Shown here: in pieces, positions 11,713 to 27,253 of the stretch | How positions within the stretch are numbered: position 1 is the stretch's first letter | Layout of the letters: every line of letters starts with the position of its first letter | Origin: Patescibacteria group bacterium | GTDB taxonomy: Bacteria; Patescibacteriota; UBA1384; 2-12-FULL-50-11 | Assembly: GCA_022843855.1 (NCBI GenBank) | Contig: JALHMV010000005.1 | Coordinates: 1-43,247 of the forward strand | Length of the DNA stretch: 43,247 bases | Direction of reading: 5' to 3' | Made by a program: the position numbers and the translations under genes | The notes under the pieces: generated by a model | Seen by the model: only the letters and a program-made list of their open reading frames with translations | The model's database searches: none | What the model was told of the DNA's origin: nothing

Positions 11713-13995
11713 ATGGGAGTTGATTTAGTTGTCTTAGTGCTTTCGAGCGCCCTTGTGCTGACATTGGGAATAACTGCTGTAAGTAATAGGGGTAGTAGCG
11801 CTCATAATCTCTACTTCTTTTTGACAACGTTGTCGATCGTCTTATGGATGGTGACGAACTACGGCGCAAATTCTATTCACGCTTTCACTCTGCTAGTCAA
11901 CAAACTTACTTTTGCTTCAGTTGTTACTGCCGCCTTTTTCCTAACACTGTTTGTACTATCGTTCCCGAAACAGTCAAGTGGCCCGCCTAAGGTGATTAAA
12001 TGGGTCTTTTGCCTGGCCACCATACTCGTACTTGCAGCGGTAGTGAGTACTGATCTCATAGTCAAGAGATACCTAGAAACGCCAACGGGCACAACAATTG
12101 AAACTGGCAAAGGGTTCTGGATTTTCCTCGCATACTTTATACCCGTTATGGTTGGTGCGCTTTCTCACTTAACTTTAAAGCGGAAAGTACTGTCACAGGG
12201 GGAGAGAAAGCAGGTCGATCTGATACTTTTTGGTGTTGGCCTAACGTTCGTGGCAGGGTTAGTCATGAATCTAATTTTGCCCCTTCTCTACGATTCAACT
12301 GTTTTCCTTACCTACACTCCTTACGGAACAGTTTTTTTAGTTGGGGCGATCTTCTATGCCATGATTGCACACGATCTATTTGAGCTTAGAACCTTAGGGG
12401 CTGGCCTCCTCGCATTCGCAATCAACATCGCATTGATTGCTCAAATCTTTGTTTCAAACAGCACCAGCGAGATGGTGCTTAAGATTGGAGTTGAGCTTAT
12501 CGTAGCGATCGGAAGCTACTCCCTTGTTAAGAACATCAATAAAGAAATATCTCGCCGGGAAGAGGTGGAGCGATTGGCGAAGGAGCGTATAGAAACATTG
12601 AAGGAGCTCGAGCAACGCAACAAGAACCTGGCCGCTCTGCAGAAAGTTTCCAAAATGGTTCTCAACCAGATCGAGATGAAGCCGATGATCCAAGCGATTC
12701 TGGACGAGATTCCGAAACAGTTTGATAACTGTACCGGCGCGCTTCTTAATCTTGTCCATGGTGGCCATATGGCTGCCTACGCGATCTCGACGAACGAGTT
12801 TACCAAGAAGGTCACAAGCCTCGTCGGCGACGATCTAGAGAAATACAGCTATCCTATCAAACCCGGCTTCAACCTTTTACACGACACGCTTATTAGCAAG
12901 CAGATTAAGGAGTCGACGAAACTCAGTGACTTCATCTGCCCCCCAATCACCAAGCCGGTGGCGGCGACGATCCAGACGTTAGTCGGAATTAAGTATACTC
13001 TGGCCGTTCCGTTGTTTGCCGGCAAAGAACCGCTCGGTGTGATGCTGTTCTCCTATCGCGTTCCCAAGAGTGAGCTGCTCGAAAAAGATCTTGATATGGC
13101 TGTGGCGATTTCGGACGAAACCAGCTTGGCCATTCAGCGCGCCTACGCCTTCCAGCAGCTTAAAGATGCCAACGAGTACCTGGCTGATCTGGATAAGCTG
13201 AAAGACGAATTTATCTCGATCGCTTCCCACGAACTCAATACACCGTTGGCAGCTGTCGAAGGCTATCTGTCGATGATTCTCGATGAGAACATGGGCAAGG
13301 TCGACGACAAGGCCCGAGTGTATCTAACCCGCGCCTACGACTCGAGTAAACGATTGGCGGAGCTGATTTTGGACTTGCTCAATGTTTCTCGCATCGAACA
13401 AGGCCGAATCAAGATGAAGTTTGCCAAGACTAACCTGTACGATTTGGCAGAGAGCGTTATGCACGAGCTTCAAGTAAAAGTTGACGCCAAGAAGCTGACT
13501 CTGAAACTGGAAGGCGATCGTAAGAGAGTACCGCAGACCTGGTGCGATCCCGATCGGATCCGCGAGGTGATTGTTAACCTGGTTGGTAACGCCATCAAGT
13601 ACACAGAAAAAGGCGGTATCCGAATGCGTATCAGCGAGGATGCCGGCCGTATCAAATTTGAAGTAATCGACACCGGTCGAGGTATCTCGGCCGAGGGCCA
13701 GAAGAAACTCTTCCAAAAGTTCTCTCAAGTTAAGCGAGAGATTGACGAGCAAAAAGGAACGGGCTTAGGCCTCTACATCAGCAAAAACTTTGTCGAACTC
13801 CATAAGGGTCGGATTTGGGTTGAGTCCGAAGAGGATAAGGGATCTGACTTTATCTTTGAGCTGCCGCTCCTGACCGAACCGCCAGAGAAGATCGAAGGGG
13901 CGATCCTGGAAGGGCCGTTGTCGGCGCCGCAGATTGAGCGGCGCAACCCGCTGGAAATACCGACGGCGATCAAAGAATCGGCTAAGAAAAATTAG
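11713..13995 (+). CDS. Sensor histidine kinase: N-terminal 7TM-type membrane domain, GAF, HisKA, HATPase
   Basis: About 270-aa multi-TM N-terminus, GAF (LAVPLF...LGVM), H-box ASHELNTPL, N-box NLVGNAIKYT, DTGRGI and GTGLGL. Confidence 0.93.
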   Translation: MGVDLVVLVLSSALVLTLGITAVSNRGSSAHNLYFFLTTLSIVLWMVTNYGANSIHAFTLLVNKLTFASVVTAAFFLTLFVLSFPKQSSGPPKVIKWVFCLATILVLAAVVSTDLIVKRYLETPTGTTIETGKGFWIFLAYFIPVMVGALSHLTLKRKVLSQGERKQVDLILFGVGLTFVAGLVMNLILPLLYDSTVFLTYTPYGTVFLVGAIFYAMIAHDLFELRTLGAGLLAFAINIALIAQIFVSNSTSEMVLKIGVELIVAIGSYSLVKNINKEISRREEVERLAKERIETLKELEQRNKNLAALQKVSKMVLNQIEMKPMIQAILDEIPKQFDNCTGALLNLVHGGHMAAYAISTNEFTKKVTSLVGDDLEKYSYPIKPGFNLLHDTLISKQIKESTKLSDFICPPITKPVAATIQTLVGIKYTLAVPLFAGKEPLGVMLFSYRVPKSELLEKDLDMAVAISDETSLAIQRAYAFQQLKDANEYLADLDKLKDEFISIASHELNTPLAAVEGYLSMILDENMGKVDDKARVYLTRAYDSSKRLAELILDLLNVSRIEQGRIKMKFAKTNLYDLAESVMHELQVKVDAKKLTLKLEGDRKRVPQTWCDPDRIREVIVNLVGNAIKYTEKGGIRMRISEDAGRIKFEVIDTGRGISAEGQKKLFQKFSQVKREIDEQKGTGLGLYISKNFVELHKGRIWVESEEDKGSDFIFELPLLTEPPEKIEGAILEGPLSAPQIERRNPLEIPTAIKESAKKN

Positions 13996-15040: not shown

Positions 15041-15475
15041 ATGTCTGAATCATTTAAGAGTATCTTGTTAGTTGACGATGACCTGACGCTGCGCGAGATG
15101 TATTCGGAGCGGCTCAAGGCGGAGGGATTTGTGGTCGAGATGGCCAGGGACGGAGAAGAGGCGCTCTCTAAGGCCGCCGAGATGCACCCCAATATTATTC
15201 TTCTCGATATCATGATGCCCAAGATCAACGGGCTCGATGTCTTAAAGAAGCTGCGCGAACAAGAAGAGACAAAAGCGATTCCGGTCATTGTTCTGACGGC
15301 CTTGATCCAGGATCGGGAAAAAATGGAGAGTATTACTCGCGGTGCTGATGACTATATCGTCAAATCTGAGACGATGCCCGGTGAGGTCATCCAAAAAGTC
15401 AAAGATCTCCTCGAGAGAGGTCCGAAACCTTCCGAGGGTACGACGGCCAATCCGCCGTCAGCTGCCGCTGCCTAG
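15041..15475 (+). CDS. Single-domain response regulator (receiver only)
   Basis: ILLVDDD, LLDIMMP (phospho-Asp), VIVLTA and GADDYIVK. No output domain. Confidence 0.92.
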   Translation: MSESFKSILLVDDDLTLREMYSERLKAEGFVVEMARDGEEALSKAAEMHPNIILLDIMMPKINGLDVLKKLREQEETKAIPVIVLTALIQDREKMESITRGADDYIVKSETMPGEVIQKVKDLLERGPKPSEGTTANPPSAAAA

Positions 15476-15502: not shown

Positions 15503-16822
15503 ATGAACGGCTATATTCGTCTCCGAGGCGGCCGGCCGTTAGTCGGGGAGATCGCCCTGCGTGGGGCGAAAAATTCTGTACCAAAGTTAATGGTGGCCGC
15601 GCTTTTGACCGACGAGCCGTGCATCATTCGTGAAGTGCCGAAGATCGAGGATGTCGAAATCATGATGACGTTGTTTAAACGTATAGGAGTCGATGTTCAA
15701 GAATTACGTCCGGGTACTCTCCAGATCACCGCTCAGAAAATGCGTCAATTGGCCGACAGTGACTTGGGCGGAGTGACGGGCAGAAGTCGGATTCCAATCC
15801 TGATGTGCGGACCGCTGCTAACGCGTTTCGGCGAGGCACTCGTCGCGAAAGTCGGCGGCTGCGATATCGGACCGCGTCCAGTCAACTTTCATATTCAGGC
15901 ACTCTCGGAATTGGGCGCACGCTACGAGGAGAAAAACGATCGGGCGTTCTTTCGTGCGAAGAGGCTCAAGGGTGCGGCGGTAACGCTTGAATATCCAAGC
16001 GTCGGAGCGACCGAACAGGTTCTGTTAGCGAGCGTATTAGCCGATGGGGTGACCGAACTGCACAACGCCGCTGTTGAACCGGAGATAATGGATCTTATCT
16101 GTTTTCTTCAGAAGATGGGAGCGATTATTTCGGTAGATACCGATCGAGTGATTACGATCGAAGGAGTAAAGCGCCTCGGCGGGACGATCCATACGGCGAT
16201 TGTCGATCGGATCGAAACGGCATCGTGGGCGTGCGCCGCGCTCGGTACTAACGGAAAGATCTTTGTTCGTAACGCCGCACAGCAGGACATGTTAACGTTT
16301 CTGAATAAGTTCCGCCAGGTTGGCGGCGGTTTTCAAGTCACCCGAGACGGCATTACGTTTTTCCGGCAGCGGGAGAGGCTGGAACCGATCACCATCGAAA
16401 CCGATATCCACCCTGGCTTCATGACTGACTGGCAGCAGCCGTTTGTTGTCGCGCTCACTCAAGCGCACGGAAGTTCGTTGATCCGCGAGACGGTCTACGA
16501 AAGCCGGTTTGGCTACACTGACGCGTTAAACACTATGGGCGCGCAGATAGCGGTCATTAACGAACCGATCGAGGAGATACGGTCTAAATTTGGTCGGCGT
16601 AACTATCGCCAAAGCGCTCGCGTGACCGGACCGACTGCGCTTAGGGGCGCAACGATCAGCGTTCCCGATCTCCGCGCCGGGTTTTCCTACGTCATCGCTG
16701 CTCTCATCGCCGAAGGAGAGAGTCGTATTGAGAACTTTAACGTCCTCTCGCGTGGGTACGAACATCTCACTGCCAAGCTGCAGACACTTGGGGCTGAAGT
16801 ACTCGAAGTAAAGATCGACTAA
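15503..16822 (+). CDS. murA: UDP-N-acetylglucosamine 1-carboxyvinyltransferase
   Basis: Motifs GAKNS, GGCDIGPRP, SVGATE, NAAVEPE, HPGFMTD and PDLRAG. Confidence 0.96.
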   Translation: MNGYIRLRGGRPLVGEIALRGAKNSVPKLMVAALLTDEPCIIREVPKIEDVEIMMTLFKRIGVDVQELRPGTLQITAQKMRQLADSDLGGVTGRSRIPILMCGPLLTRFGEALVAKVGGCDIGPRPVNFHIQALSELGARYEEKNDRAFFRAKRLKGAAVTLEYPSVGATEQVLLASVLADGVTELHNAAVEPEIMDLICFLQKMGAIISVDTDRVITIEGVKRLGGTIHTAIVDRIETASWACAALGTNGKIFVRNAAQQDMLTFLNKFRQVGGGFQVTRDGITFFRQRERLEPITIETDIHPGFMTDWQQPFVVALTQAHGSSLIRETVYESRFGYTDALNTMGAQIAVINEPIEEIRSKFGRRNYRQSARVTGPTALRGATISVPDLRAGFSYVIAALIAEGESRIENFNVLSRGYEHLTAKLQTLGAEVLEVKID

Positions 16823-17496
16823 TCAAAGGGGTTTGACTTGCCGAAATTGCCTTCGGTCTCGATGTTTGGCACAGTTGTGTACGGAGTAAATCTGTTAAAC
16901 AACGCCTCGGCATCGGCGAGGAAGGTCTGTTTACCAGTAAAGGTTTTAGGAGAACTCACTCTTGATGAGGCTTGACCAGTGATCGTTGCCGTCGTTTTCT
17001 CCCCCTCGGTAGTGATATCAATCGCTGTCAGTTGATTCCATCGGCTGAGCGTTCGGAGTTGGACGATCAGTTGTTTGACCTGATCGAAGCTCATCGATCC
17101 GCTGATGGTGAATTTGGTGATAGCGGTCTGACCGGTTCCCTCTTCGCTGACCGGCGCCGAAAGCGGCACTTCAATGGTCGCGGTACTGAGAGAGAGCGAG
17201 GCGAGGAGGCCGTCGAGCTGCAGAATTAAGATCTCTGGCTGAGGCGACATCGGAAGCGAGAGCGTCGCTTTTTGATACAACTCGTCGAGCGTCTCTGGCT
17301 CTTTTTCGATCGAGCCGAGCGTGGCGAGGAACTGCTCGTTTTCGCTCACTTGGGCAGCGAGCTGGATGAGTTCGGCGCGACTGGCGCTGACGGAGCGGAG
17401 CTGAGCGGGGATGACAAGCCAACCGATCCCACCAACCAAACCGAGAAAGACGAGCGTCAATATCCAGAATGTCAAGTTACGACTGAGTCCTCTCAT
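16819..17496 (-). CDS. pilO: Type IV pilus alignment protein, PilO-like
   Basis: N-terminal TM, coiled coil, C-terminal 'GKSNPF' tail; follows pilM-pilN. Confidence 0.65.
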   Translation of the reverse strand: MRGLSRNLTFWILTLVFLGLVGGIGWLVIPAQLRSVSASRAELIQLAAQVSENEQFLATLGSIEKEPETLDELYQKATLSLPMSPQPEILILQLDGLLASLSLSTATIEVPLSAPVSEEGTGQTAITKFTISGSMSFDQVKQLIVQLRTLSRWNQLTAIDITTEGEKTTATITGQASSRVSSPKTFTGKQTFLADAEALFNRFTPYTTVPNIETEGNFGKSNPFD

Positions 17497-18053
17497 TCTT
17501 CCCCCTTAACTGGTGTGTAGGTAGCGCTGAGCGAGAAGCTAAAGACCTTTCGATTATCGACGATTGATTCTGAAAGCGAGAGGATGGTGGCCTTGGTGAT
17601 TGCGTCAGAGGCTTCGAGCTTATCACGGTAGAGGACGATCGAGCGCCGGTCGAATGTTGAGCCGCTGATCGCGATATCGATCGATGCTCCTTGGGCTGTT
17701 GTTGCGACCCGGGTACTGGTCAGAACTGTGTCGGTCGGGGTAGCGCTGGCGATTTCATTTAAAATCGCTTCCCACCGATACTTTTCTTGGGCAGTTGTTG
17801 CAGCTCGAAGACGATCTTCGACAAAACTTGCTTTCGTGACGATCTCGTTTTTGGCGCGCCGTTGCGAGGTCAACTGCTCAATCTGTGATCGCCGGTCGCT
17901 GATGTCGCTCTGTTGCATAAATCCCCAAGTCATCAGTCCGGCTATCGCGAGACCAACTAAAGCGATAACAATGAGGTAGATAACCGCCACGTTGATAAGG
18001 GCGCTGCGAGTACGCCGGGCTTCCTTTAGCTCTGGTGGAAGCAGGCTGAGCAT
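17493..18053 (-). CDS. pilN: Type IV pilus assembly protein PilN
   Basis: N-terminal LSLLP (INLLP-like), TM, coiled coil, IASATP...I.ISG. Confidence 0.8.
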   Translation of the reverse strand: MLSLLPPELKEARRTRSALINVAVIYLIVIALVGLAIAGLMTWGFMQQSDISDRRSQIEQLTSQRRAKNEIVTKASFVEDRLRAATTAQEKYRWEAILNEIASATPTDTVLTSTRVATTAQGASIDIAISGSTFDRRSIVLYRDKLEASDAITKATILSLSESIVDNRKVFSFSLSATYTPVKGEE

Positions 18054-19099
18054 TACGATGTCCTCATCGCTAGGCCAACAGCGTCGGCGAAGGTATGAGA
18101 GAATCGGGTTGAGATCGGGTAATGATGGGTATCAATCAAGCCAAACGGGCTACCGATCCGGCTGGCGAGCCCTGTCTGTTGTTGAAAGACTTCAACAATA
18201 CCAGCGATGTTAGTGCCTGAGCCGGAGAGGATAACCTCCTCTATCCTCACGCCGGGACAGACTCGGTTCTCAAAGAATTTGGTGATATGGACGAGTTCAT
18301 CGAAAACCGGGCTAAACTCTTTTTGGAGCTCGCCTGGACTTGGCTGGGTGTCGAGCAACGCCTTGACCCCCCACGGTACCGTGGATGTGACACGAATACT
18401 CTGGCCCTCAACGATTGATGCGCCGGTGCTGCCGGCACCAAGATCAAGAATGGCACGAGCTTTGTCGTCGTTCTTGCCGATGACCGCCCGGGCGATCGCT
18501 CCTGGTTTGATATCGATACCGTCTAGCTCGAGTCCGGTGTGTTCGACCGTCGCGATCACTGATTCGATCAACGACTTTTTAGCCGCGACGGCAAAAACGG
18601 TTAGTCCATCAACTGATTCCGATTCGTTCACGTTGGTTGCTTCTTTATCAGTTGTCTTGCCAGGTTTTGAGTTGGTTTTAGCGGCGGCTTGATCGATCGC
18701 TTTGGCGTCGAGCGGCTTGCATTTGGTCGTTACGACCTCGTAATCAAAGTAGAAGTCCTCAAGGTTAATCGAGAGTTTCTCAGCCAACTCAAAGGGGATC
18801 GCCTCAGCAAGCTCGCTTTCGCTTAAGAGCGGCATGGAAAACGTTCCTGAAAATATGACTGATTCTGGCAGTGCGATCATTGCCTTACGTCCGGTGATCG
18901 GCGCCGGTTTCGCCAGCCTCAAGGTGTCGGTGATGATCTTCGCGATCTCTTCGCTGTTGGTTAAGGCGTCGGTCTGCCATGAGCTAACAGGAATTGGGGC
19001 GATATTCATCCCCTTAAGCCGCCAGTGCTTGCCTTGCTTAGTGAGGCCGATGACCTTGACGGTCTCGTAGCCGATATCAATACCGATTGTCGTGCTCAC
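18053..19099 (-). CDS. pilM: Type IV pilus assembly protein PilM (actin-like)
   Basis: Motifs IGIDIG, ILDLGAGST, ILSGSG and AVGLAMR. GTG start with GGAGG SD. Confidence 0.88.
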   Translation of the reverse strand: MSTTIGIDIGYETVKVIGLTKQGKHWRLKGMNIAPIPVSSWQTDALTNSEEIAKIITDTLRLAKPAPITGRKAMIALPESVIFSGTFSMPLLSESELAEAIPFELAEKLSINLEDFYFDYEVVTTKCKPLDAKAIDQAAAKTNSKPGKTTDKEATNVNESESVDGLTVFAVAAKKSLIESVIATVEHTGLELDGIDIKPGAIARAVIGKNDDKARAILDLGAGSTGASIVEGQSIRVTSTVPWGVKALLDTQPSPGELQKEFSPVFDELVHITKFFENRVCPGVRIEEVILSGSGTNIAGIVEVFQQQTGLASRIGSPFGLIDTHHYPISTRFSHTFADAVGLAMRTS

Positions 19100-19144
19100 A
19101 TTCCCTCCGTATCCAGGATACCGCAATTTGGCTCAAAAGGTCAG

Positions 19145-20866
19145 CTAGTTGCTAATCTCGCGCCAGGTACCTTTCTTGAACTGCCACCCGGCGCCGGGCC
19201 CGCTGGTGAAATTCATATTGGCGAGTCCGGACTCGTAGGTAACGCTTGAAGAGTTGGATAGTGTGATACCCCAGGCGGTGGCTTCTTTGGCGGTGGCCGA
19301 GTTGGAAAACTGGATCCACGACTTACCGGCGTAATAAATCACTCCGGTGGATGCGTTGGAAACGAAAATTGATGTTTGGCTTTTGGCGTCACGTGCAGTA
19401 AGTAGCAGTATATAACTACCAGTCCCGGCGCCTTGGAAGATAGCCGAGTTAGAGACGGTGATCGTTCCGTCGCTCAGTACCACACCAGAATTGGTGCCGT
19501 AGCCGGGGTCGAGACGCATCGTTGACGAGTTGGAGATATTGATATTGCCGGTTACCCAGAGCGTCCCCGTGATCGTCAGAATCGAGGTATTACTGAGGTT
19601 GAGGTTGCCCTCGATTTTCCTTGGGCCGAGACTGGCTTGAGTTGAACCGCTGAGGTTATAGTCGCCGCTATGGGTGCCGCCGGCAACAGCGTCGTTTTTC
19701 CAGTCGGTTATGACTCCGTCAGAAATCGGCATCGCCTCCGGCGGCGGGTTACTGATAATGCAGGAGGCGTTGGGGCAGTTGGATCCGCCAGCGCTCGTGT
19801 TGATGATCTGATTGGCTCGGGCAATGCCGCCGACCGTCATCCCTTCGATCCGAGTGATGGTACCGCCGAGCCAGACCTGAAAGGCCAGATCGCCGCCGGC
19901 GTTGGTCCAGGTGGGGCTACCGGAACAGCAGTTGCTGGTGTATTTGCCGGTATTGTTGGCGTACGAATCGGTCGAATCTTTGCGCCAGTTCCAGTAATTG
20001 GTTGCCGAGTTGGAGTTGTAATCAAGCACGATCCAATACTTGGTGTTGTTGCTGAGGTTCGGTGGCGATGAAAACGTGACGTCGATCCAAGACGGCGTCA
20101 GTCCGACCGACGCGTGGGCGATGACCGCTGTGGCGAGGCTACTGGTATTGGGGCGGTTGCTGACGTCGGTGGCGATCCGGACGGTGAGATTGGAAGTCGG
20201 ATTGCCGACTTTTCCAAGTAGAACCGACGCTTTTGTGAGGGCAGCCGAGCTAGTAGCGGTAAACGACTGAGCGATATCGCGATTAGTTGAGGCGGTGGCG
20301 AAGAACTGATCGTTGTCTTCAAGCGTCGCGGCCACGCTTGGGGTATCGGACAGGCCGCCGGCAACGGTGGCGTCACCGGTGATCGTGGCGCCGTTGCTGC
20401 CGATGATGTTGCCGTTACTGAAGACGTTACCGTTGACCTGGGAGCTGTTGGTCATAGAGAGGCCACCGCCGTCGACTTGAATGCCGTAAAAGAATTCGAC
20501 GTTATCTGAATCAAGACTCGCCTCGACTCGAATTGTTCGCGTCGAACGAGGAGTAGTATTGTTGGGGACGTAACCGGTTGACTCGATCGTCCGAGTACTG
20601 CCCGTCCCGCTGACTGTCACCGTAAAGGTGCCGTTGCCGAGGGGCGTATTCGTCTCGCCAGCGTAGTTGCCGTTGGTATTGAGTTGGCGGATGGCGTGTT
20701 CGGCGCCGGCTTCAGCAAGATTCAGCGATTGATAGGCGAGATACGATCGATTGGTCGAGGCACCCTCGCGGTGAACGAGCTGGAGCGACACGGTTGTGAG
20801 GGTGAAGAGAATGCCAAGCACCACCAGGGCAAACGCGAGAATGTGACCAGACGATTGTTCCTTCAT
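19145..20866 (-). CDS. PilX-like minor pilin / tip adhesin with large Ser/Thr/Asn/Gly-rich beta domains
   Basis: G|HILAFALVV leader, LAEAGAEHAI PilX motif, beta-helix-like repeats, ends in WREI. Confidence 0.78.
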   Translation of the reverse strand: MKEQSSGHILAFALVVLGILFTLTTVSLQLVHREGASTNRSYLAYQSLNLAEAGAEHAIRQLNTNGNYAGETNTPLGNGTFTVTVSGTGSTRTIESTGYVPNNTTPRSTRTIRVEASLDSDNVEFFYGIQVDGGGLSMTNSSQVNGNVFSNGNIIGSNGATITGDATVAGGLSDTPSVAATLEDNDQFFATASTNRDIAQSFTATSSAALTKASVLLGKVGNPTSNLTVRIATDVSNRPNTSSLATAVIAHASVGLTPSWIDVTFSSPPNLSNNTKYWIVLDYNSNSATNYWNWRKDSTDSYANNTGKYTSNCCSGSPTWTNAGGDLAFQVWLGGTITRIEGMTVGGIARANQIINTSAGGSNCPNASCIISNPPPEAMPISDGVITDWKNDAVAGGTHSGDYNLSGSTQASLGPRKIEGNLNLSNTSILTITGTLWVTGNINISNSSTMRLDPGYGTNSGVVLSDGTITVSNSAIFQGAGTGSYILLLTARDAKSQTSIFVSNASTGVIYYAGKSWIQFSNSATAKEATAWGITLSNSSSVTYESGLANMNFTSGPGAGWQFKKGTWREISN

Positions 20867-21489
20867 ACTGCCTTATTTCGTAGTATAACCGTTGTATCGA
20901 ACGAACGGGTAATTGTTCGGTCGTTGACGATCCGGCGAGAGGTCAGCGTCAGCTTTATTCGTCTCGCAGCCGTGAGGTTGTGAGTCCCGGGCAGCAGCTC
21001 AGCGCCGGCAGCGTTGTAATACTGGATAGCGAGCGCACCGACCTCGCTGTGGACGGTCAGCGGTGAATAGTAATTGGCACGGACGCTGGTTCCGTGAGCG
21101 CTCATTAATCGCAGGAGCGCTGCATTGTCTTTCTCAAAAACGATGTAGTCGTCGCCGGTCACGATGGTACCGCCGCTGTCGATCGGCGGGAGCCGGAGCA
21201 CGAGAGTATCGCTATCCGAAGTGTACGTCGTTGAGTTGATCGTTGTGGCGCTGATAACTGATGACGCACCCCAAATCTGCTTCGTCATCTCGTCGAGACT
21301 GAAGCGAGCGGCTCGCTGCAACTCACCGTATGCCTCATGGGCGACTTGGGCCTTCCAGCCGTCAGCCAGCGACTGGCTAATTACCAGACCAACGCTGATA
21401 GAGATGGCGATGGCTACCAGCGACTCCAGGACGGTGAATCCTGCCTTACGATGAGAGTAGCGAGCCGAGCTCTGATGAGTGAATACCAT
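20863..21489 (-). CDS. Prepilin-type minor pilin (PilW/PulJ-like)
   Basis: RKAG|FTVLESLV class III signal; C-terminal V.LRN. Confidence 0.8.
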   Translation of the reverse strand: MVFTHQSSARYSHRKAGFTVLESLVAIAISISVGLVISQSLADGWKAQVAHEAYGELQRAARFSLDEMTKQIWGASSVISATTINSTTYTSDSDTLVLRLPPIDSGGTIVTGDDYIVFEKDNAALLRLMSAHGTSVRANYYSPLTVHSEVGALAIQYYNAAGAELLPGTHNLTAARRIKLTLTSRRIVNDRTITRSFDTTVILRNKAV

Positions 21490-21493
21490 TTTC

Positions 21494-21880
21494 TTACCCA
21501 GCGATGCCCCCTTGACCGAGCAGGGTGACAAGAGTAATTGCCTCTGACTCTGGTCGATTCTGCCAATAGACTCTGATCGTAATCTGCTTGATTTTATCGT
21601 TGCCGTTGTAGTGGGTAACGTACGTTTTGGTATAGCCGCCGGGCAGCTTAGAAGTTGCTACGGCCGGCGGGTTGGCGTTGAGCGTTGCGTTATCGAAGCC
21701 GGCTAGTCGAATCGCATCGACCGTTTCCTGAGCCAATTGAGCCGCCGCCGTGATATTACGCGAGTGTTGGGTGTAGCGAAACGAAAGCGAGAACATCCCG
21801 AGCACGGTGAGGATGGCTAAGGCAAAGACGGTAGCAGCAACGAGCGTTTCCATGACGGTCATGCCGCGACGCTTGCTCAT
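21494..21880 (-). CDS. Prepilin-type minor pilin (PilV-like)
   Basis: KRRG|MTVMETLVA class III signal. Confidence 0.82.
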   Translation of the reverse strand: MSKRRGMTVMETLVAATVFALAILTVLGMFSLSFRYTQHSRNITAAAQLAQETVDAIRLAGFDNATLNANPPAVATSKLPGGYTKTYVTHYNGNDKIKQITIRVYWQNRPESEAITLVTLLGQGGIAG

Positions 21881-23076
21881 TGAAAGTCGCTTACCAGCTT
21901 GTAGATCGGTCCGAGAACGGATGCGACGATAAACGCCACCCCGATACCCATCACCAGCAACATAATCGGCTCGATCAGGGAAGCGAGGTTTTTGGTAAGG
22001 TTTTCAACCTCGCTGTCGTAGAAGCGGGTTATTTCTTGGAGAACCGATTCGATATTGCCGGACTCCTCGCCAAGGGTGGTTAACTGGCTGACCATCGGCG
22101 GAAACAACGGTTCTTTAGCCATCGCCGCCGAAAGCGGTTTACCGCTTTCGACTTCTTTGACGATGCGATTAAACGCGGCTTCGTAATGTTTGTTATCGAT
22201 GGTTTTTTGAACGATCCGAATCGCTTCGATGATCGGTAGGCTGGCTTTAATGAGCATGCTCATGGTTCGGGAGAACGTTGACATATAAACCTTAGTCGTC
22301 AACATGCCGAAGACTGGGAGTTTGATTTTGAGCTTGTCGTAGACAAGCCGTCCGCGCGGGCGGCCGAACCAAAGCTTAAGAAGATAGAGGAGGCCGATAA
22401 AAATCGGGGCGACGATATAGAAGTAATTTCGTAAAATTTCGCTAGTGGTGAAGAGCAGTTTGGTCGTGGTTGGCAGTTCGGCGCCAAAATCAGCGAAGAC
22501 GGTTTTGAGGCTGGGCAGAACAAAGAAAACGATTAAGAACGCGACGCCGATTAACGCGATAAAGATAATAGCGGGATACATCATCGCGCCTCGGACCTTG
22601 GAGATGAGATCGGCTTGTTTCTCCTGTTGGTCCGCAAGGTTGAAGAGAACGTCGGCGAGCTGGCCGGTCTGTTCGCCGGCTCGGATAACGGCGGTGTAGA
22701 CCTCCGGAAAAACCTTCGGGTACTTCATCATCGTTGTCGAAAGCGGCTGGCCGCCCTTAACCTGAGCGATGAGCTCCAAGATAATTTTCTGAAAATGTTT
22801 ATTGTTGGTTTGGTGGTGCAGCGCTTCGAGCGCTTTGACGGCCGGCAGGCCAGCCTTGATCATGACGGCGAGTTGGCGGGTGAAGATAATCCGCTCCTTG
22901 AGCGGCACTTTGGTCCGTTTAAATAGTGTGAATCCTCCGCTGCCGGCGACGATTCTAATCGGAACAAGTCGACGTTCGCGTAAAATCCGGCCAGCCGACG
23001 AGACGTTATCTGCTTCAATCTGACCGGTCTGTTTTTTGCCTGCCGCGTCTTTGGCGGTATAGGTAAACGTTGGCAT
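21877..23076 (-). CDS. pilC: Type IV pilus platform protein PilC (GspF family)
   Basis: Motifs FTRQLAVMIKAG, AGEQTGQL, AMMYP, GEESG and LIEP. Confidence 0.93.
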   Translation of the reverse strand: MPTFTYTAKDAAGKKQTGQIEADNVSSAGRILRERRLVPIRIVAGSGGFTLFKRTKVPLKERIIFTRQLAVMIKAGLPAVKALEALHHQTNNKHFQKIILELIAQVKGGQPLSTTMMKYPKVFPEVYTAVIRAGEQTGQLADVLFNLADQQEKQADLISKVRGAMMYPAIIFIALIGVAFLIVFFVLPSLKTVFADFGAELPTTTKLLFTTSEILRNYFYIVAPIFIGLLYLLKLWFGRPRGRLVYDKLKIKLPVFGMLTTKVYMSTFSRTMSMLIKASLPIIEAIRIVQKTIDNKHYEAAFNRIVKEVESGKPLSAAMAKEPLFPPMVSQLTTLGEESGNIESVLQEITRFYDSEVENLTKNLASLIEPIMLLVMGIGVAFIVASVLGPIYKLVSDFQ

Positions 23077-24968
23077 CAGTCTTTGGTGACGCGCCAGACT
23101 TCTTCAATCGTGGTTAAGCCGTCGAGCGCCTTCAGAATACCGTCTTGCTTGAGGGTAATTAGTCCGTCCTTTCTGGCCTGAATCATGAGCTCCGAGCTGG
23201 ACGCGCGTTTAATTGTGAGTTGTCTAACTGGTTCGGTTACCGCGAGCACTTCAAAGATTCCGATTCGGCCTTTGTAGCCAGAATTACCACACGCCGCACA
23301 CCCACTCCCGATAAAGAGTTTTCTCTTGGCGTTTGCTTCGCTTTTTTCGGGCTCGGGTAGGGTGTCGATCTCTGCCTTGATGACGGTTAGGTGTTCAGGT
23401 TTCGGGTCGACTTCCTGTTTGCACTTCTCACAGATTTTGCGGCACAATCGTTGGGCGACGATAGCGTTGGTACTTGATGTAATTAGAAACGGCTCGATAC
23501 CCATGTCGAGCAAGCGAGGAAGAGCTCCGGCAGAGTCGTTGGTGTGCAAACTTGACAGAACGACGTGTCCAGTGAGGGCGGCGTTGATAGCGATATCGGC
23601 GGTTTCTTTGTCTCGAATTTCACCAACCATCACGACATCTGGGTCTTGTCGCAAGATTGAGCGCAAACCGCTGGCAAAGGTAAAGTTGATCTTGGAGTTG
23701 ACTTGGCTCTGGTTAACACCGGGCATCCGGTACTCAACTGGATCTTCCATCGTAATAATGTTGATCGCCTCGTCCTTGATCCGATGAATCATCGCGTAGA
23801 GCGTTGTTGATTTACCGGAACCAGTCGGACCAGTGATGAGCGTCATGCCGTGCGCTTTGGTGAGGTTGTCTTCAAGAACCTTTAAAGCCCGTCCGCGAAC
23901 GCCAAGATCGTTGAGGTTTAAGACCCCGCCCGAGTGATCCAGGACACGAGCGACAACTTTTTCGCCGTTAACTGTGGGAAGCGTCGAGATACGAAAATCG
24001 ATCTTGGCGCCGTCAAGCAGGATCTGAATCCGCCCGTCTTGCGGTAGGCGAGTTTCGTCGATCTTGAGGTTGGCGAGAATCTTAACGCGGCTCGTGATGG
24101 CCGCTTGGACGTCTTTCGGAAGCGTCAGAACTTTGCGTAAAACGCCGTCGATGCGAAAACGGACGGTCACGTCTTCTTCTGAGGGCTCGATATGTATATC
24201 TGAGGCTTTCTCTCGAACCGATCGCTTAAGGAGCGTCGTCACAATCTTGGCGGCGGGTGAGGTCTCGGTAATCTCGTCTTGACTGACTCTCTCGGCCTCT
24301 TTAGCTGCCTTCTCTTCGTCCTCCTCCGAAACCTCAACCAGTTCGCCGAGCTCGGATTGCATGCCGGAGTACTGATCGAGGATGTGATTGACGTCCTCGG
24401 CGGTTGAGATAAACGATTTCACGATCTTGCCCGAGGCTTTGCGAATCGCGTTAAAGGCTTCTTCGTTCTCCGGGTCTGTCATACCGATAAAGAGCGTTTT
24501 ATCTTTCAGGGCGAACGGCACTGCCTGGTATTTGCGAGCGATCGGTTCGGGCACGAGGGCGAGGATGTCTTTGGGGATCGTCTTATCAACCAATTCGATA
24601 AATTGGATGTTGGATTCGCGGTTATGAAGATCGGTGACGCGGAATTGCTCATCGACTGGTTCAGTTGTTTTGCCGGCGTTGCTCGAAGCGGTGACTTGAT
24701 CGGTCAGATCTTCGGTCAGATCAAAATCGGGGGTGGTGGTGGCGGCAAGCGTAATATTCTGCCGTTTGCCGCCGAAAGTCGTTGTAATCTTACGTTCTGG
24801 GAGACGGGTGAGCTTGAAGTTACCGAGTCCCTTCAGCTCAACTGGTTCGCCGCCGGCGAGTGTTTCGCCGATAATCTCGGTCAGACCCTTGAGGTAGGCA
24901 CGTACTCTAAAGCCGGGTTGTCCGGTTTTTGTGCTTAATTTTTTGACGATATCGTTGGTGACTGCCAC
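23076..24968 (-). CDS. pilB: Type IV pilus extension ATPase PilB/GspE with an N-terminal HU/IHF-like domain
   Basis: Motifs ASDIHIEP, RLPQDGR, Walker A GPTGSGKST, EDPVE, LRQDPD, GHVVLSSLH and CxxC...CxxC. The first ~92 aa resemble HU. Confidence 0.93.
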   Translation of the reverse strand: MAVTNDIVKKLSTKTGQPGFRVRAYLKGLTEIIGETLAGGEPVELKGLGNFKLTRLPERKITTTFGGKRQNITLAATTTPDFDLTEDLTDQVTASSNAGKTTEPVDEQFRVTDLHNRESNIQFIELVDKTIPKDILALVPEPIARKYQAVPFALKDKTLFIGMTDPENEEAFNAIRKASGKIVKSFISTAEDVNHILDQYSGMQSELGELVEVSEEDEEKAAKEAERVSQDEITETSPAAKIVTTLLKRSVREKASDIHIEPSEEDVTVRFRIDGVLRKVLTLPKDVQAAITSRVKILANLKIDETRLPQDGRIQILLDGAKIDFRISTLPTVNGEKVVARVLDHSGGVLNLNDLGVRGRALKVLEDNLTKAHGMTLITGPTGSGKSTTLYAMIHRIKDEAINIITMEDPVEYRMPGVNQSQVNSKINFTFASGLRSILRQDPDVVMVGEIRDKETADIAINAALTGHVVLSSLHTNDSAGALPRLLDMGIEPFLITSSTNAIVAQRLCRKICEKCKQEVDPKPEHLTVIKAEIDTLPEPEKSEANAKRKLFIGSGCAACGNSGYKGRIGIFEVLAVTEPVRQLTIKRASSSELMIQARKDGLITLKQDGILKALDGLTTIEEVWRVTKD

Positions 24969-25018
24969 GTTCCCTCCTTTTCCATCCTAACAGACCGCTA
25001 GCCAACGAAAAAATGAAC

Positions 25019-25050
25019 AAAAAAATGACCGCGGCAGGGCACCGCGGTCA
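25019..25050 (-). terminator. Terminator of the ECF sigma gene
   Basis: TGACCGCGG-7nt-CCGCGGTCA followed by U7 on the minus strand. Confidence 0.8.
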
Positions 25051-25659
25051 GGGTGGGGGGACGCAACCGTTGCGACCAGCCTTCTCTTGGGTAGGCGACC
25101 ATACAGACGACTTACCAGCCGATTCGGCCAACAGCGCTTGAAGTTGTGCTCGCCCGCGGACCAAGCGACTTTTGACAGCGCTGGGGGTGATCCCCAGCTC
25201 GCTCGCGACGGCTTCAACTTCTCCTCCCTCGAACATAATCAGACTGACCACATCGCGGTTGATCAGCGGTATTTGTCGCGTGAGTCGTTTCGCATCATCT
25301 ATCTCCAGTCGCTGAAGTACCTCGTTCTCGATTTCGTTCGGAGAGATAAGGGCATCGCCCTGTTCGTCGATGGGTAGGACGTGCTTTTGGCGCTTTCGCC
25401 AATCGAGAGCGCTTCTTACGACGGTTGTGCCGATGTATCCAAGTAATTGCCGCTCGTTGTCGTGGCGGATCGTGCCGCTTTGAGCGGCACGCAAGACCTT
25501 GAGGCAGGTCTCACCATACATATCTTCAGCCGCATCTTGGTTGCCCGTATAATGCCAAGCTATCCGAATGAAACGGGACCGAAATTGTGTCAGAAGCCGC
25601 TCGATCGTAGCTCGGACTTGATCCCCTGACGCTGCGGGTGGTGGTTGGAATGTTTTCAT
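25048..25659 (-). CDS. ECF-type RNA polymerase sigma factor
   Basis: Region 2: DAAEDMYGETCLKV...ALDWRKR. Region 4: VASELGITPSAVKSRLVRGR. AAGGAG SD before ATG 25659. Confidence 0.88.
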   Translation of the reverse strand: MKTFQPPPAASGDQVRATIERLLTQFRSRFIRIAWHYTGNQDAAEDMYGETCLKVLRAAQSGTIRHDNERQLLGYIGTTVVRSALDWRKRQKHVLPIDEQGDALISPNEIENEVLQRLEIDDAKRLTRQIPLINRDVVSLIMFEGGEVEAVASELGITPSAVKSRLVRGRAQLQALLAESAGKSSVWSPTQEKAGRNGCVPPP

Positions 25660-25786
25660 GACGCTCCTTGGTAAAAGGTGCAAGTCCCAGGATTGTAATC
25701 AAAAACACTTCGATTGAGAACACGGTACGAACGCAGCCCGCTGAGTCGTGACTTTCTAGGCTGTTCGTGGCAGTATGAGCATCGAC

Positions 25787-27253
25787 ATGTCATCGCTTTA
25801 TCGACAGTATCGGCCGCAACAGTTTAGCGATGTTTTAGGTCAAGATCATATTAGTACAACGCTCCAGGCGGCGCTCAAGGCCGATCGGATTGGTCACGCA
25901 TACCTTTTTTCGGGACCGCGCGGAACCGGTAAGACAACGCTCGCTCGTCTTTTTGCCCGGGCGATCAACTGCCCGAAGCGCCTCAAGAGCGGTGACCCGT
26001 GCGGAAAATGTTCGATCTGTCAGGAGATTGCGGCCGGAAAGGCCGTTGATGTATTTGAGATTGACGCGGCATCTAATCGCGGGATCGACGAGATTCGTGA
26101 GCTCCGTGACCGAATCGCTTTTAGCCCAGTTCAAGCTAAGTACAAGGTCTTTGTTATCGATGAGGTTCATATGCTGACGAAGGAGGCGTTTAATGCCTTG
26201 CTCAAAACCCTCGAAGAGCCGCCGGCTCACGCAGTATTTATCTTAGCTACGACCGAGCTCCACAAGGTGCCTGATACGATCGTTTCGCGCTGCCAGCGGT
26301 TTGCGTTTCATCGAGCTTCGGGGGAGGCGCTGACTAAATTGCTTAGCGAAACTGCTGCGCAGGAGAAGATTGAGATCAACGAAAGCGGTATCGTAGCCGT
26401 TGCCGAACGAGCAGACGGTTCATATCGTGACGCGCTGACCCTGCTCGGCAACATCGCGACGCACACTGGTTTGCTCGACGCAACCAAAGTCCGTGAGCTC
26501 CTCGGGCTGCCGCACACCGAAACCGTCAGCCGAGTTTTGGAGCTGATTCAAACAGGCGGAGCAACCGAACTGGCCGAGGTTCTCCGTACCTATATCGCCG
26601 ACGGCCTTGACTTGCCGTCGCTGGTAAAATCGATCGCCGATGAGTGCAAGAACGCACTTCTGAACGGATCAGCTGCCCACCCGCCGGAAGAATTAGCGCA
26701 ACTGCTCGAGCAGCTCCTCCTGAGTCTGGCTCGTTCGCGCACCTCGACCGATCCGACGGCGCTGTTAAGCGCTCATCTTATCGGCCAAGCGCTTAATCGA
26801 AGTCAAACAGTACCGCCGCCAAGCGCGCCGATCGTACGCGACGTTCGGCCACCTGCGGCGCCTTCAGCCGAACCGCCGACCGTTGACGCCGTCGTTTCTG
26901 CTCCGGCTCCGGCTAAGCCGGTCGCGATGCGAGCCGATACAGCGGCCGACTTTTGGCCGCATTTCCTCGAGGGAATTAAGGGCCACAACCACGCGCTCTA
27001 TATGGTAGTTCGCTCGGCCGCGCTTGAAGGACTCACTGATGACAAGGTCGTCATCGCTGTCAAATTCCGTTTTTACGTTGACCGGTTAACAGAAATTCGC
27101 AATAAGAAGATTATCGAGAACGTTGCCAGCGAGGTTGGCGGTCGCCGGCTGGGGCTAGAGTGCGTTATTCGTCCCGAGCTTACGGTGGTTGCGCCGACTG
27201 ATGATTTGGTTCGAACAGTTGTTGATGTATTTGAAGTAGAGGAGAGCGCATGA
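25787..27253 (+). CDS. dnaX: DNA polymerase III subunit gamma/tau
   Basis: Motifs LYRQYRP, GPRGTGKT, EIDAASN, IDEVHML and SRCQ. Alternative start at 25775. Confidence 0.95.
   Translation: MSSLYRQYRPQQFSDVLGQDHISTTLQAALKADRIGHAYLFSGPRGTGKTTLARLFARAINCPKRLKSGDPCGKCSICQEIAAGKAVDVFEIDAASNRGIDEIRELRDRIAFSPVQAKYKVFVIDEVHMLTKEAFNALLKTLEEPPAHAVFILATTELHKVPDTIVSRCQRFAFHRASGEALTKLLSETAAQEKIEINESGIVAVAERADGSYRDALTLLGNIATHTGLLDATKVRELLGLPHTETVSRVLELIQTGGATELAEVLRTYIADGLDLPSLVKSIADECKNALLNGSAAHPPEELAQLLEQLLLSLARSRTSTDPTALLSAHLIGQALNRSQTVPPPSAPIVRDVRPPAAPSAEPPTVDAVVSAPAPAKPVAMRADTAADFWPHFLEGIKGHNHALYMVVRSAALEGLTDDKVVIAVKFRFYVDRLTEIRNKKIIENVASEVGGRRLGLECVIRPELTVVAPTDDLVRTVVDVFEVEESA

What the first reader, a model, noticed from the sequence alone, without database searches (positions are those of the whole stretch)
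24693..24968. HU/IHF-like nucleoid-protein domain fused to the pilus ATPase PilB
Seen: residues 1-92 (DIVKKLSTKTG...LTEIIGETLAGGEPVELKGLGNFKLTRLPER...ITLAATTTPDFDLTEDLTDQV) follow the HU pattern, in frame with PilB and with no stop between. The intercalating arm Pro (RNP) is absent and the normally basic final strand/helix is acidic. Inference: it may tether the pilus motor to the nucleoid or incoming DNA, or heterodimerise with HU, linking pilus assembly to DNA uptake or the cell cycle.
Basis: partly seen in the sequence, partly recalled or inferred. Interest (0 to 1): 0.7.

Follow-up and report, generated by a model that had tools for sequence, protein, structure and literature searches.

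The report
HU-fold domain fused to PilB motor
A pilus-assembly motor protein in a tiny Berkelbacteria-like bacterium really does begin with a domain shaped like the DNA-clasping nucleoid protein HU, an old and widespread fusion in that lineage that I did not find described and that may tie the pilus motor to DNA.

Summary
The ORF at 23076-24968 (-) encodes 630 aa. It has a GTG start behind an AAGGAGGG Shine-Dalgarno site. Its domains are HU/IHF (Pfam PF00216, 34 bits against a cut-off of 22.4, aa 5-92), a roughly 25-aa low-confidence linker, MshEN, and an intact PilB-type ATPase. An AlphaFold model has HU topology, and the listed Foldseek matches at E <= 0.001 are HU/IHF-family chains.

The fusion is not a one-off. 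It occurs in 17 of 18 other genomes of the same family. At least 72 of 162 genomes of the class hold an HU match in a long frame. Relatives' records are titled Candidatus Berkelbacteria. Of 30 such long frames sampled, 29 are HU+MshEN+T2SSE. The HU trees do not reject a single origin.

However, the basic arm is the best-conserved part of the domain. The acidic C-terminal helix is not conserved.

The best reading (about 45%) is a flexibly tethered nucleic-acid clasp, dimeric like other HU folds, that couples the motor to DNA. The main rival is a DNA-free pairing or partner-binding module. No DNA binding was tested. No paper describing the fusion was found.

The parts
23076..24968 (-). Whole gene: HU-MshEN-PilB extension ATPase, 630 aa, GTG start
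   Evidence: ORF list and translation; Pfam domains
24973..24977 (-). Shine-Dalgarno GGAGG (within AAGGAGGG), 4 nt before the GTG
   Evidence: Read from the sequence. Equivalent GGAGG-type sites sit before the HU domain in many of the related loci examined
24693..24968 (-). HU/IHF-fold domain, aa 1-92: two helices, sheet, beta-hairpin arm (about aa 52-76, tip F65-G66-G67-K68), C-terminal helix
   Evidence: PF00216 34 bits against cut-off 22.4; PDB HU hits; AF2 model and Foldseek
24615..24692 (-). Linker aa 93-118, predicted with low confidence
   Evidence: pLDDT < 50 for residues 96-109. The HU-to-MshEN spacing varies from about 17 to over 300 residues among relatives
24354..24611 (-). MshEN (GSPII/N1) domain, aa 120-205
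   Evidence: PF05157 55.1 bits
23091..24269 (-). T2SSE ATPase core, aa 234-626, with Walker A GPTGSGKS (380), Walker B DPDVVMVGEIR (442), His box (466) and two CxxC pairs (513, 557)
   Evidence: PF00437 434.7 bits; motif scan
21877..23076 (-). pilC (T2SSF platform protein); its start touches the pilB stop
   Evidence: PF00482 216 bits. pilC lies directly downstream in 35 of 36 related loci
19145..21880 (-). Three ORFs (128, 222 and 573 aa). The first two have prepilin-like N-termini (G/MTVMETLVA, G/FTVLESLVA). The third has an N-terminal hydrophobic helix
   Evidence: Translations; no Pfam hit; the prepilin motif is my reading of the sequence
16819..19126 (-). pilM (18053-19126), pilN (17493-18053) and a 225-aa PilO-like membrane ORF (16819-17496)
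   Evidence: PF11104 78.7 bits and PF05137 33 bits; the PilO-like label is inferred from position only
25026..25050 (-). Terminator-like hairpin plus T-run between the upstream sigma-factor gene (25048-25683, -) and pilB
   Evidence: Consensus scan; pattern match only

Best explanation
The gene encodes one of three PilB-type pilus extension ATPases of a small (0.86 Mb) Berkelbacteria-like genome. Its first 92 residues are a genuine, translated HU/IHF-fold domain, joined to the usual MshEN + ATPase body by a short linker predicted with low confidence. SHOWN: the fold; the in-frame fusion; an intact ATPase; a pilus operon (pilC, prepilin-like ORFs, pilM, pilN); wide and apparently old conservation of the fusion across the class; and strong conservation of the basic beta-arm within this family. 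INFERRED: like other HU folds, the domain pairs with a second copy. That would give up to three pairs per PilB hexamer, or bridges between hexamers. Its basic arms would then clasp nucleic acid, so the cytoplasmic pilus motor is physically tied to DNA, either the nucleoid or DNA entering next to the pilus base. In this family the tip proline is replaced by a hydrophobic-Gly-Gly tip (F/L/I-G/N-G), and the basic residues around F82 are lost. Binding is therefore probably weaker or less bending than in canonical HU.
For: Fold and fusion. Intact Walker A, Walker B, His box and CxxC pairs. Operon. Conservation: 12 of 12 near-length hits to aa 1-115 carry PF00216+PF05157+PF00437. 17 of 18 other genomes of the family have the domain; 16 are in frames of 632-683 aa and one is cut by a contig end. 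At least 72 of 162 genomes of the class, the window's own included, have an HU match in a long frame. Of 30 such frames sampled, 29 are MshEN+T2SSE (9 of 10; 20 of 20). 70 of 70 long proteins found with the domain profile have the three-domain set. Origin: 35 of 37 fused domains group together (SH-aLRT 90), and forcing all 37 into one clade is not rejected (p-AU 0.589). Ligand-binding arm: within the family the arm (aa 52-76) has 84% mean pairwise identity, against 69% for the whole HU domain, 37% for the C-helix and 87% for the ATPase. R55, P57, R59, K60, F65, G66, G67 and K68 are invariant in 12 sequences. Arm net charge is +5 and pI 11.7; the domain pI is 9.1. Fused domains of 8 of the 9 non-f1-type rows in A2 keep a proline near the arm tip, and most are net +6 to +11. 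Tethering: linker length varies from about 17 to over 300 residues. The genome also has ComEC and DprA. A contig of one public run bridges 23558-25100 with one differing letter. That run may be the source sample.
Against: No DNA binding was measured or modelled. The columns nearly invariant across the whole class are G49, F51, I33, V43, P57, L74 and F82, all core or arm-base positions rather than classic DNA contacts. The window's family lacks the tip proline, and acidic or neutral residues replace the basic ones that flank F82 in other families. The window's own domain is only net +2, with a -5 C-helix. The fused domains of family f3 are net -8 to -10 with shortened arms, so the domain is kept where DNA binding looks unlikely. 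PilB relatives without HU exist in sister families: f2 has 43-45% identity starting at residues 115-124, and f5 has 56% identity starting at residue 111. One genome of the window's own family gave no HU-PilB match. Non-DNA-binding HU folds are proposed in print (HU-CCDC81, HU-HIG; PMC5499826, passages read).
Confidence: 0.45

Rival explanations
1. A DNA-free pairing or protein-binding module. The HU fold is used only to pair PilB N-termini (stabilising or clustering hexamers) or to dock on another protein of the pilus platform. DNA binding has been lost, at least in this family.
For: Class-wide conserved columns are core positions. The tip proline and the basic residues next to F82 are lost in this family. 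The f3 variants are acidic with short arms. Five fusions in other families have lost Walker A, Walker B and the His box but keep HU and MshEN, which suggests a scaffold role independent of catalysis. HU clades proposed not to bind DNA are in print (PMC5499826).
Against: The solvent-exposed arm is the best-conserved part of the domain in this family and is strongly basic. Most fused domains elsewhere are net +6 to +11 with a proline near the tip. No partner is identified.
Confidence: 0.3
2. The fused domain pairs with the free 71-aa armless HU-like protein of the same genome, giving a one-armed heterodimer that recruits or regulates the motor.
For: The only other PF00216 match in this 95%-complete genome is the armless ORF, which matches model positions 1-56, the helical pairing part. 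No genome of the family reaches the PF00216 scores of the canonical free HUs of other families: best E 1e-8 to 1e-13 against mostly 1e-21 to 1e-32. Heterodimers of an anchored HU with a free HU were proposed for HU-CCDC81 proteins (PMC5499826).
Against: The two genes are on different contigs and are not operonic. There is no detectable pairwise similarity. No test of the pair was run. In other families the fusion coexists with a normal free HU, and some genomes show only the fused match.
Confidence: 0.08
3. A regulatory sensor. Nucleic-acid binding by the domain switches ATPase activity or sequesters the motor, for instance parked on the nucleoid when inactive. Alternatively the protein moonlights as a DNA-structuring factor at the divergent dnaX-pilB promoter region.
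For: dnaX lies divergently upstream of the fusion gene in 30 of 36 related loci. N-terminal domains of PilB are known regulatory sites for c-di-GMP, PilZ and FimX (review PMC11656802, passages).
Against: Synteny may simply be inherited. In the window a sigma-factor gene and a terminator-like hairpin lie between dnaX and pilB. A variable linker of up to about 300 residues argues against tight allosteric coupling.
Confidence: 0.12
4. An artefact: a wrong start codon, a chimeric assembly, or a decaying remnant of a neighbouring hup gene read through by chance.
For: None found. The GTG start is less common than ATG.
Against: A strong Shine-Dalgarno site sits before the HU domain here and in many of the related loci examined. 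The fusion appears in dozens of independent assemblies, including complete genomes. There is amino-acid-level conservation with invariant arm residues. A contig in a public run bridges the junction.
Confidence: 0.02

Closest known systems
Canonical HU/IHF nucleoid proteins (Pfam PF00216; e.g. Lactococcus HU 5lvt, Bacillus anthracis HU 3rhi, Anabaena HU-DNA 1p71)
   Same: Same fold order (two helices, sheet, long beta-hairpin arm, C-terminal helix), the GxGxF core motif and a basic arm. The Pfam score is above the cut-off. Foldseek TM on target is 0.77-0.86 for the top hits.
   Different: It is not a free protein of about 90 aa but the N-terminus of a 630-aa ATPase. There is no R-N-P tip proline. 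Pro is invariant at the arm base (P57, part of a [YL]-P motif shared by nearly all fused domains but absent from the free HUs of the same class). The C-helix is acidic and variable. Sequence identity to solved HUs is only 20-30% in the top Foldseek hits.
PilB / GspE / MshE-type extension ATPases with N-terminal MshEN (GSPII) domains
   Same: MshEN + T2SSE body with Walker A, Walker B, His box and a tetracysteine motif. The gene sits in an operon with pilC, pilM, pilN and prepilin-like genes.
   Different: An extra HU-fold domain precedes MshEN. In one search, the best-matching PilBs from other phyla (L060 onward) align only from about residue 47-193 onward. The 2024 review of PilB and its cofactors (PMC11656802, term search) has no occurrence of 'DNA-binding' or 'Patescibacteria'. 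The two other PilB paralogues in this genome lack HU.
Anchored HU-fold proteins described by Burroughs et al. 2017 (PMC5499826): bacterial HU-CCDC81 + TM + SPOR/LysM, proposed nucleoid-to-envelope tethers; eukaryotic HU-CCDC81 fused to dynein-VII
   Same: An HU fold is attached through a disordered segment to a membrane-associated or motor protein, with a proposed tethering or cargo role and possible pairing with a free HU (passages read).
   Different: The clade differs: HU-HIG scores 17-21 bits against a cut-off of 26.2, and no HU-CCDC81 model matches the fused domain at E <= 1. The partner (a PilB ATPase) and the lineage (Berkelbacteria) also differ. That paper's main text has no occurrence of pilus, PilB, secretion or ATPase. 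Its supplements were not read.
Bacillus subtilis ComGA (recalled, not from any call)
   Same: A PilB-family ATPase of a competence pilus that gathers DNA-handling proteins at the uptake site. This is a functional analogy for coupling the motor to DNA.
   Different: As far as I recall, ComGA has no DNA-binding domain of its own. The comparison is from memory only.

Membership tests
HU/IHF superfamily (PF00216 Bac_DNA_binding) | Profile match above the curated cut-off | tested here: met
   34.0 bits (whole protein) and 38.4 bits (aa 1-100) against 22.4; 37.6 bits in the genome scan
HU/IHF superfamily (PF00216 Bac_DNA_binding) | [quoted passage not shown] | tested here: met
   AF2 model element order. 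The listed Foldseek matches at E <= 0.001 are HU, IHF or HU-like histone-like chains, with TM on target up to 0.86
HU/IHF superfamily (PF00216 Bac_DNA_binding) | Intercalating proline at the arm tip (R-N-P motif) | tested here: not met
   The tip is T-T-F-G-G-K here and [TN]-[FLI]-[GN]-G-[KQ] across the family. Fused domains of 8 of the 9 non-f1-type rows in A2 do have a proline near the tip
HU/IHF superfamily (PF00216 Bac_DNA_binding) | Basic residues along the arm | tested here: met
   R55, R59, K60 and K68 are invariant in 12 sequences, and position 69 is K in 11 of 12 (R in the window); arm net charge +5, pI 11.7
HU/IHF superfamily (PF00216 Bac_DNA_binding) | Obligate dimer | not testable with these tools
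   Needs SEC-MALS, crosslinking or a structure. Inferred only from the fold (PMC5499826 introduction)
HU/IHF superfamily (PF00216 Bac_DNA_binding) | Binds and bends DNA | not testable with these tools
   No DNA-docking or binding assay is available here
PilB-type type IV pilus extension ATPase (PF00437 T2SSE with PF05157 MshEN) | T2SSE core with Walker A, Walker B, His box and a tetracysteine motif | tested here: met
   434.7 bits; GPTGSGKS at 380, DPDVVMVGEIR at 442, TGHVVLSSLH at 466, CxxC at 513 and 557
PilB-type type IV pilus extension ATPase (PF00437 T2SSE with PF05157 MshEN) | N-terminal GSPII/MshEN domain, and a gene neighbourhood with pilC, pilM, pilN and pilins | tested here: met
   MshEN 55.1 bits; pilC, pilM and pilN by Pfam; prepilin-like N-termini; pilC downstream in 35 of 36 related loci
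HU-HIG (PF18291) / HU-CCDC81 clades | Profile match above the curated cut-off | tested here: not met
   HU-HIG scores 17.4 and 20.9 bits against 26.2. No HU-CCDC81 model is listed for the fused domain at E <= 1

The most novel reading that the evidence does not exclude
In Berkelbacteria the type IV pilus extension motor is physically coupled to DNA through its own HU clasp. Either it receives or organises DNA arriving beside the pilus base (these genomes carry ComEC and DprA), or it uses the nucleoid as the matrix that positions and partitions pilus machines in ultra-small cells. The clasp matters enough that some lineages keep HU-PilB even after the ATPase site has decayed, as a nucleoid-to-pilus-platform adaptor.
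Probability: 0.3. Interest if true: 0.8.

Novelty: new variant of a known kind. Interest (0 to 1): 0.6.

Why it matters
PilB N-terminal regions are known as docking sites for c-di-GMP and protein cofactors. A built-in nucleoid-protein fold would be a different kind of input. Candidate-phyla-radiation bacteria depend on pili for host contact, and pili are thought to serve DNA scavenging as well. A motor that holds DNA directly would give a concrete, testable link between pilus machinery and DNA handling or chromosome organisation in cells with very few regulatory parts. The domain is small, soluble and conserved, so binding, pairing and ATPase assays are straightforward. The natural series offers ready-made comparisons: proline-tipped, proline-less, acidic and dead-ATPase forms.

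Tried and rejected
1. Complex prediction with two copies of aa 1-115 and alignment A2 gave the verdict 'no answer' (score 0.40, mark 0.42). It is not used for or against pairing.
2. The look-up of sequencing runs listed no RNA holder. The four 'RNA-Seq cDNA' runs are flagged as probably DNA, so nothing can be said about expression.
3. The protein-atlas search on aa 1-240 returned only MshEN clusters at scores of 0.82-0.84, under the 0.9 lead level. It is uninformative for the fusion.
4. The search for related loci with aa 1-115 alone found no confirmed locus. The second scan, with alignment A1, worked.
5. The search of protein representatives with aa 1-115 gave 28 hits at E <= 0.001. The closest were fragments of the same fusion (246, 130, 328 and 64 aa). 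The library's 50% clustering hides most full-length fusions.
6. BLASTP of the fused domain against the 71-aa armless HU-like ORF gave no alignment.
8. Literature searches found no paper describing an HU-PilB fusion (term look-ups in PMC5499826, PMC6744442, PMC12206443, PMC11656802 and PMC9530719). Only passages were read. Supplements were not opened, and the supplementary architecture lists of PMC5499826 could bear on the novelty claim. Subscription journals are not in the library.
9. Rejected: a downstream true start, because of the Shine-Dalgarno site and the conservation of the domain.
10. Rejected: membership of the HU-HIG or HU-CCDC81 clades, because the scores are below the cut-offs.
Full report
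OBSERVATION. The finding's coordinates (24693-24968, minus strand) are exactly residues 1-92 of a 630-aa ORF at 23076-24968. The ORF starts with GTG, 4 nt after AAGGAGGG. No stop separates the N-terminal part from the rest. Pfam finds three domains above their curated cut-offs. These are Bac_DNA_binding (PF00216) on aa 5-92 at 34.0 bits (cut-off 22.4; 38.4 bits when aa 1-100 are scanned alone), MshEN on aa 120-205 at 55.1 bits, and T2SSE on aa 234-626 at 434.7 bits. phmmer against PDB sequences returns 23 sequences named HU, IHF or phage TF1 (best E 7e-5).

An AlphaFold2 model of aa 1-115 was built on a 25-row alignment of fused domains (A2). Its mean pLDDT is 74.5, and residues 96-109 are below 50. 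The element order is helix 3-15, helix 19-38, then strands 43-45, 49-56, 59-65, 68-74 and 77-84, then helix 86-96. The listed Foldseek matches at E <= 0.001 are HU, IHF or HU-like histone-like chains (5lvt E 9e-7, TM on target 0.79; 3rhi 0.82; the HU-DNA complex 1p71 0.77).

ANATOMY AND CONTEXT. The ATPase part is intact. It has Walker A GPTGSGKS (380), Walker B DPDVVMVGEIR (442), a His box (466) and two CxxC pairs. The gene heads a pilus operon on the minus strand:
- pilC (21877-23076), whose start touches the pilB stop;
- two ORFs with prepilin-like N-termini (21494-21880 and 20863-21531) and a 573-aa ORF with an N-terminal hydrophobic helix;
- pilM, pilN and a PilO-like ORF.

Upstream on the same strand lies an ECF-like sigma-factor gene (25048-25683), followed by a terminator-like hairpin (25050-25026). 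dnaX, dnaB and a UvrD-like helicase ORF then run the other way. I named those three from their translations, not from a family search.

The window belongs to a genome of 855 kb in 39 contigs, 95% complete. That genome has four T2SSE ATPases: this one, an 890-aa PilB with two MshEN stretches next to a PilT, and a 588-aa MshEN+T2SSE protein. Only this one carries HU. ComEC and DprA are present.

DISTRIBUTION. A word-indexed search with aa 1-115 found 12 near-length proteins, including the window's own. They share 54-99% identity with the query in that region, and all 12 carry PF00216+PF05157+PF00437.

Whole-genome search of the order (22 genomes, G000 included):
- 17 of 18 other genomes of the window's family (f1) have the domain.
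- 16 of these are in open frames of 632-683 aa, and one is cut by a contig end.
- 0 of 3 genomes of the sister family f2 have it.

Search of the class (162 genomes) with PF00216:
- 127 genomes match.
- The common pattern is two matches per genome: a free HU of about 90-130 aa (mostly 80-112 bits) and a second match inside a frame of 618-944 aa.

I counted the rows shown. At least 72 of 162 genomes, G000 included, have an HU match in a long frame. This is a lower bound, because one search left 90 matches unlisted.

I fetched 30 of these long frames from 12 families other than f1.
- Nine of the first 10 are HU+MshEN+T2SSE. The exception, L023, is HU plus about 400 residues with no Pfam hit.
- All 20 of the next set are MshEN+T2SSE. 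Nineteen of them have PF00216 at E <= 1e-6. The exception is an acidic f3 form.

A profile of the fused domain was searched against proteins of 203-2000 aa. It found 70 proteins, and all 70 carry the three-domain set. The source names that are given read 'GspE', 'PilB', 'TadA', 'ATPase, T2SS/T4P/T4SS family' or 'hypothetical protein'. None of them mentions HU.

Related records are titled Candidatus Berkelbacteria, Patescibacteria group bacterium or, probably by automatic labelling, uncultured Candidatus Saccharibacteria. In the same scan, the best-matching PilBs from other phyla (L060 onward) align only from about residue 47-193 onward.

A phylum sample of 401 genomes was searched with the A2 profile. 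Among the 150 rows listed, all 9 long-frame matches lie in genomes of the window's class. The other 248 matches were not listed.

Synteny is conserved. pilC follows the gene in 35 of 36 related loci, and dnaX lies divergently upstream in 30 of 36. The misses are mostly at contig ends.

ORIGIN. A tree was built from 37 fused domains, 16 free HUs of the class and 4 free HUs from other classes (99 columns, so resolution is low). It puts 35 of the 37 fused domains in one group (SH-aLRT 90). The family f1 clade has 99% support on a long stem (1.39 changes per column). Forcing all 37 fused domains into one clade gives a slightly better likelihood and is not rejected (p-AU 0.589). A single old fusion followed by vertical descent and some losses is therefore compatible with the data, but it is not proven.

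Losses or absences are real:
- f2 PilBs match only from residues 115-124 onward, at 43-45% identity.
- One f5 PilB matches from residue 111 at 56% identity, in a 577-aa frame.
- One f1 genome (94% complete) gave only the 891-aa paralogue as its best match.

FEATURES THAT BEAR ON FUNCTION.
1. Within the window's family (12 sequences, A1) the arm (aa 52-76) is the best-conserved part of the HU domain. Its mean pairwise identity is 84%. The whole domain has 69%, the C-terminal helix 37%, MshEN 83% and the ATPase 87%. R55, L56, P57, E58, R59, K60, F65, G66, G67 and K68 are invariant. A solvent-exposed hairpin held this tightly points to a ligand.
2. The arm is basic (net +5, pI 11.7) and the domain has pI 9.1.
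3. The tip proline is indeed missing in the family. The tip is hydrophobic-Gly-Gly (F/L/I-G/N-G). Fused domains of 8 of the 9 non-f1-type rows in A2 keep a proline near the tip (VRNP, NPRDP, NHP, DPP) and basic residues around the conserved Phe (K-F-R-P-S). The ninth (L018, family f3) has a shortened arm with no tip proline. The non-f3 forms have net charges of +6 to +11.
4. Across the whole class the nearly invariant columns are G49, F51, I33, V43, P57, L74 and F82. These are core positions plus a proline at the arm base that the free HUs lack.
5. The f3 fused domains are net -8 to -10, with shortened arms.
6. The spacing from HU to MshEN ranges from about 17 residues to over 300, and the window's linker is modelled with pLDDT below 50. 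The domain therefore looks like a flexibly tethered module rather than a rigid part of the motor.
7. Five fusions in other families lack Walker A, Walker B and the His box yet keep HU, MshEN and both CxxC pairs. They are L015, L022, L129 and L143 in f38, and L132 in f11.

MECHANISM. What is shown: a real HU-fold domain on an intact PilB in a pilus operon, conserved widely, with a conserved basic arm. What is inferred:
- The HU fold is described as an obligate dimer whose hairpins clasp DNA (PMC5499826 introduction). The N-termini of PilB subunits would therefore pair up, and the arms would hold nucleic acid, tying the motor to the nucleoid or to DNA near the pilus base. I give this about 45%.
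- In the window's family the loss of the tip proline and of the basic residues next to F82 suggests weaker or non-bending binding. A hydrophobic tip residue might act as the wedge. That last point is speculation.
- The main rival (about 30%) is that the fold now serves only for pairing or partner binding. It is supported by points 4, 5 and 7 and by published non-DNA-binding HU clades.
- Two smaller rivals are pairing with the free armless HU-like protein (about 8%) and a regulatory role at the motor or at the dnaX-pilB region (about 12%).
- An artefact is very unlikely (about 2%).

COMPARISON AND NOVELTY. The domain passes the profile, fold and basic-arm tests for the HU/IHF superfamily and fails the tip-proline test. 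Pairing and DNA binding could not be tested. It does not reach the cut-offs of the HU-HIG or HU-CCDC81 models. The body is an ordinary PilB.

The nearest published ideas are the anchored HU-CCDC81 proteins and the HU-CCDC81-dynein fusion of Burroughs et al. 2017, which were proposed as tethers or cargo binders. That paper's main text has no occurrence of pilus, PilB, secretion or ATPase. A 2024 review of PilB cofactors has no occurrence of 'DNA-binding' or 'Patescibacteria'. Papers on candidate-phyla-radiation pili mention PilB only in general terms. Six full-text searches found no description of the fusion.

The architecture is visible in public databases as precomputed Pfam hits, so it is not hidden, only undescribed as far as I could search. 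I did not read supplements or subscription journals. I rate it a new variant of a known kind, with interest 0.6.

LIMITS. No binding, pairing or expression evidence was obtained. Family and class labels are the tool's anonymous codes. Related genomes are not independent samples.

Noticed in passing
G000 contig C12; locus L001 1450-1662 (-): The only other PF00216 match in the window's genome is a 71-aa ORF that matches only model positions 1-56 (47.6 bits). It has the helices and first strands but no beta-arm. No genome of family f1 reaches the PF00216 scores of the canonical free HUs of other families (best E 1e-8 to 1e-13 against mostly 1e-21 to 1e-32). The family therefore appears to lack a canonical free HU, and the PilB-fused copy is its only armed HU fold.
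   Followed up: partly
L015 299-2344 (+), L022 532-2601 (-), L129 494-2554 (-), L132 66-1946 (+), L143 62-2215 (+): Five HU-PilB fusions in other Berkelbacteria families have weak T2SSE scores (112-225 bits against about 430). They lack Walker A, Walker B and the His box but keep HU, MshEN and both CxxC pairs. They are probably pseudo-ATPases that retain the HU domain.
   Followed up: partly
L016, L017, L018, L137 (family f3): The fused HU domains of this family are strongly acidic (net -8 to -10 for L016-L018), and some have shortened arms. This is the opposite of what a DNA binder should look like.
   Followed up: no
L023 343-1860 (+) (G112, family f36): A 506-aa ORF has an N-terminal HU domain (38.6 bits) followed by about 400 residues with no Pfam hit. 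This is a different, unexplained HU fusion.
   Followed up: no
window 25775-27253 (+) and related loci L024-L059: dnaX lies divergently upstream of the HU-pilB gene in 30 of 36 related loci across families. In the window an ECF-like sigma-factor gene (25048-25683, -) is inserted between them.
   Followed up: partly
window 25026-25050 (-): A terminator-like hairpin (11 pairs, then a T-run) lies right after the sigma-factor gene, about 55 nt before the pilB start. pilB may therefore have its own promoter in a very short gap.
   Followed up: no
G000 contigs C10 (L103 1813-4482 -, 721-1785 -) and C13 (L104 1071-2834 -): There are two further PilB paralogues. One is 890 aa with two MshEN stretches and sits next to a 355-aa PilT. 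The other is 588 aa and has about 110 N-terminal residues without any Pfam hit.
   Followed up: partly
window 11713-13995 (+), 15041-15475 (+): A histidine kinase with a 7TM sensor region and a GAF domain, and a lone receiver-domain protein, lie a few kb from the distal (pilM/pilN/PilO-like) end of the pilus operon.
   Followed up: no
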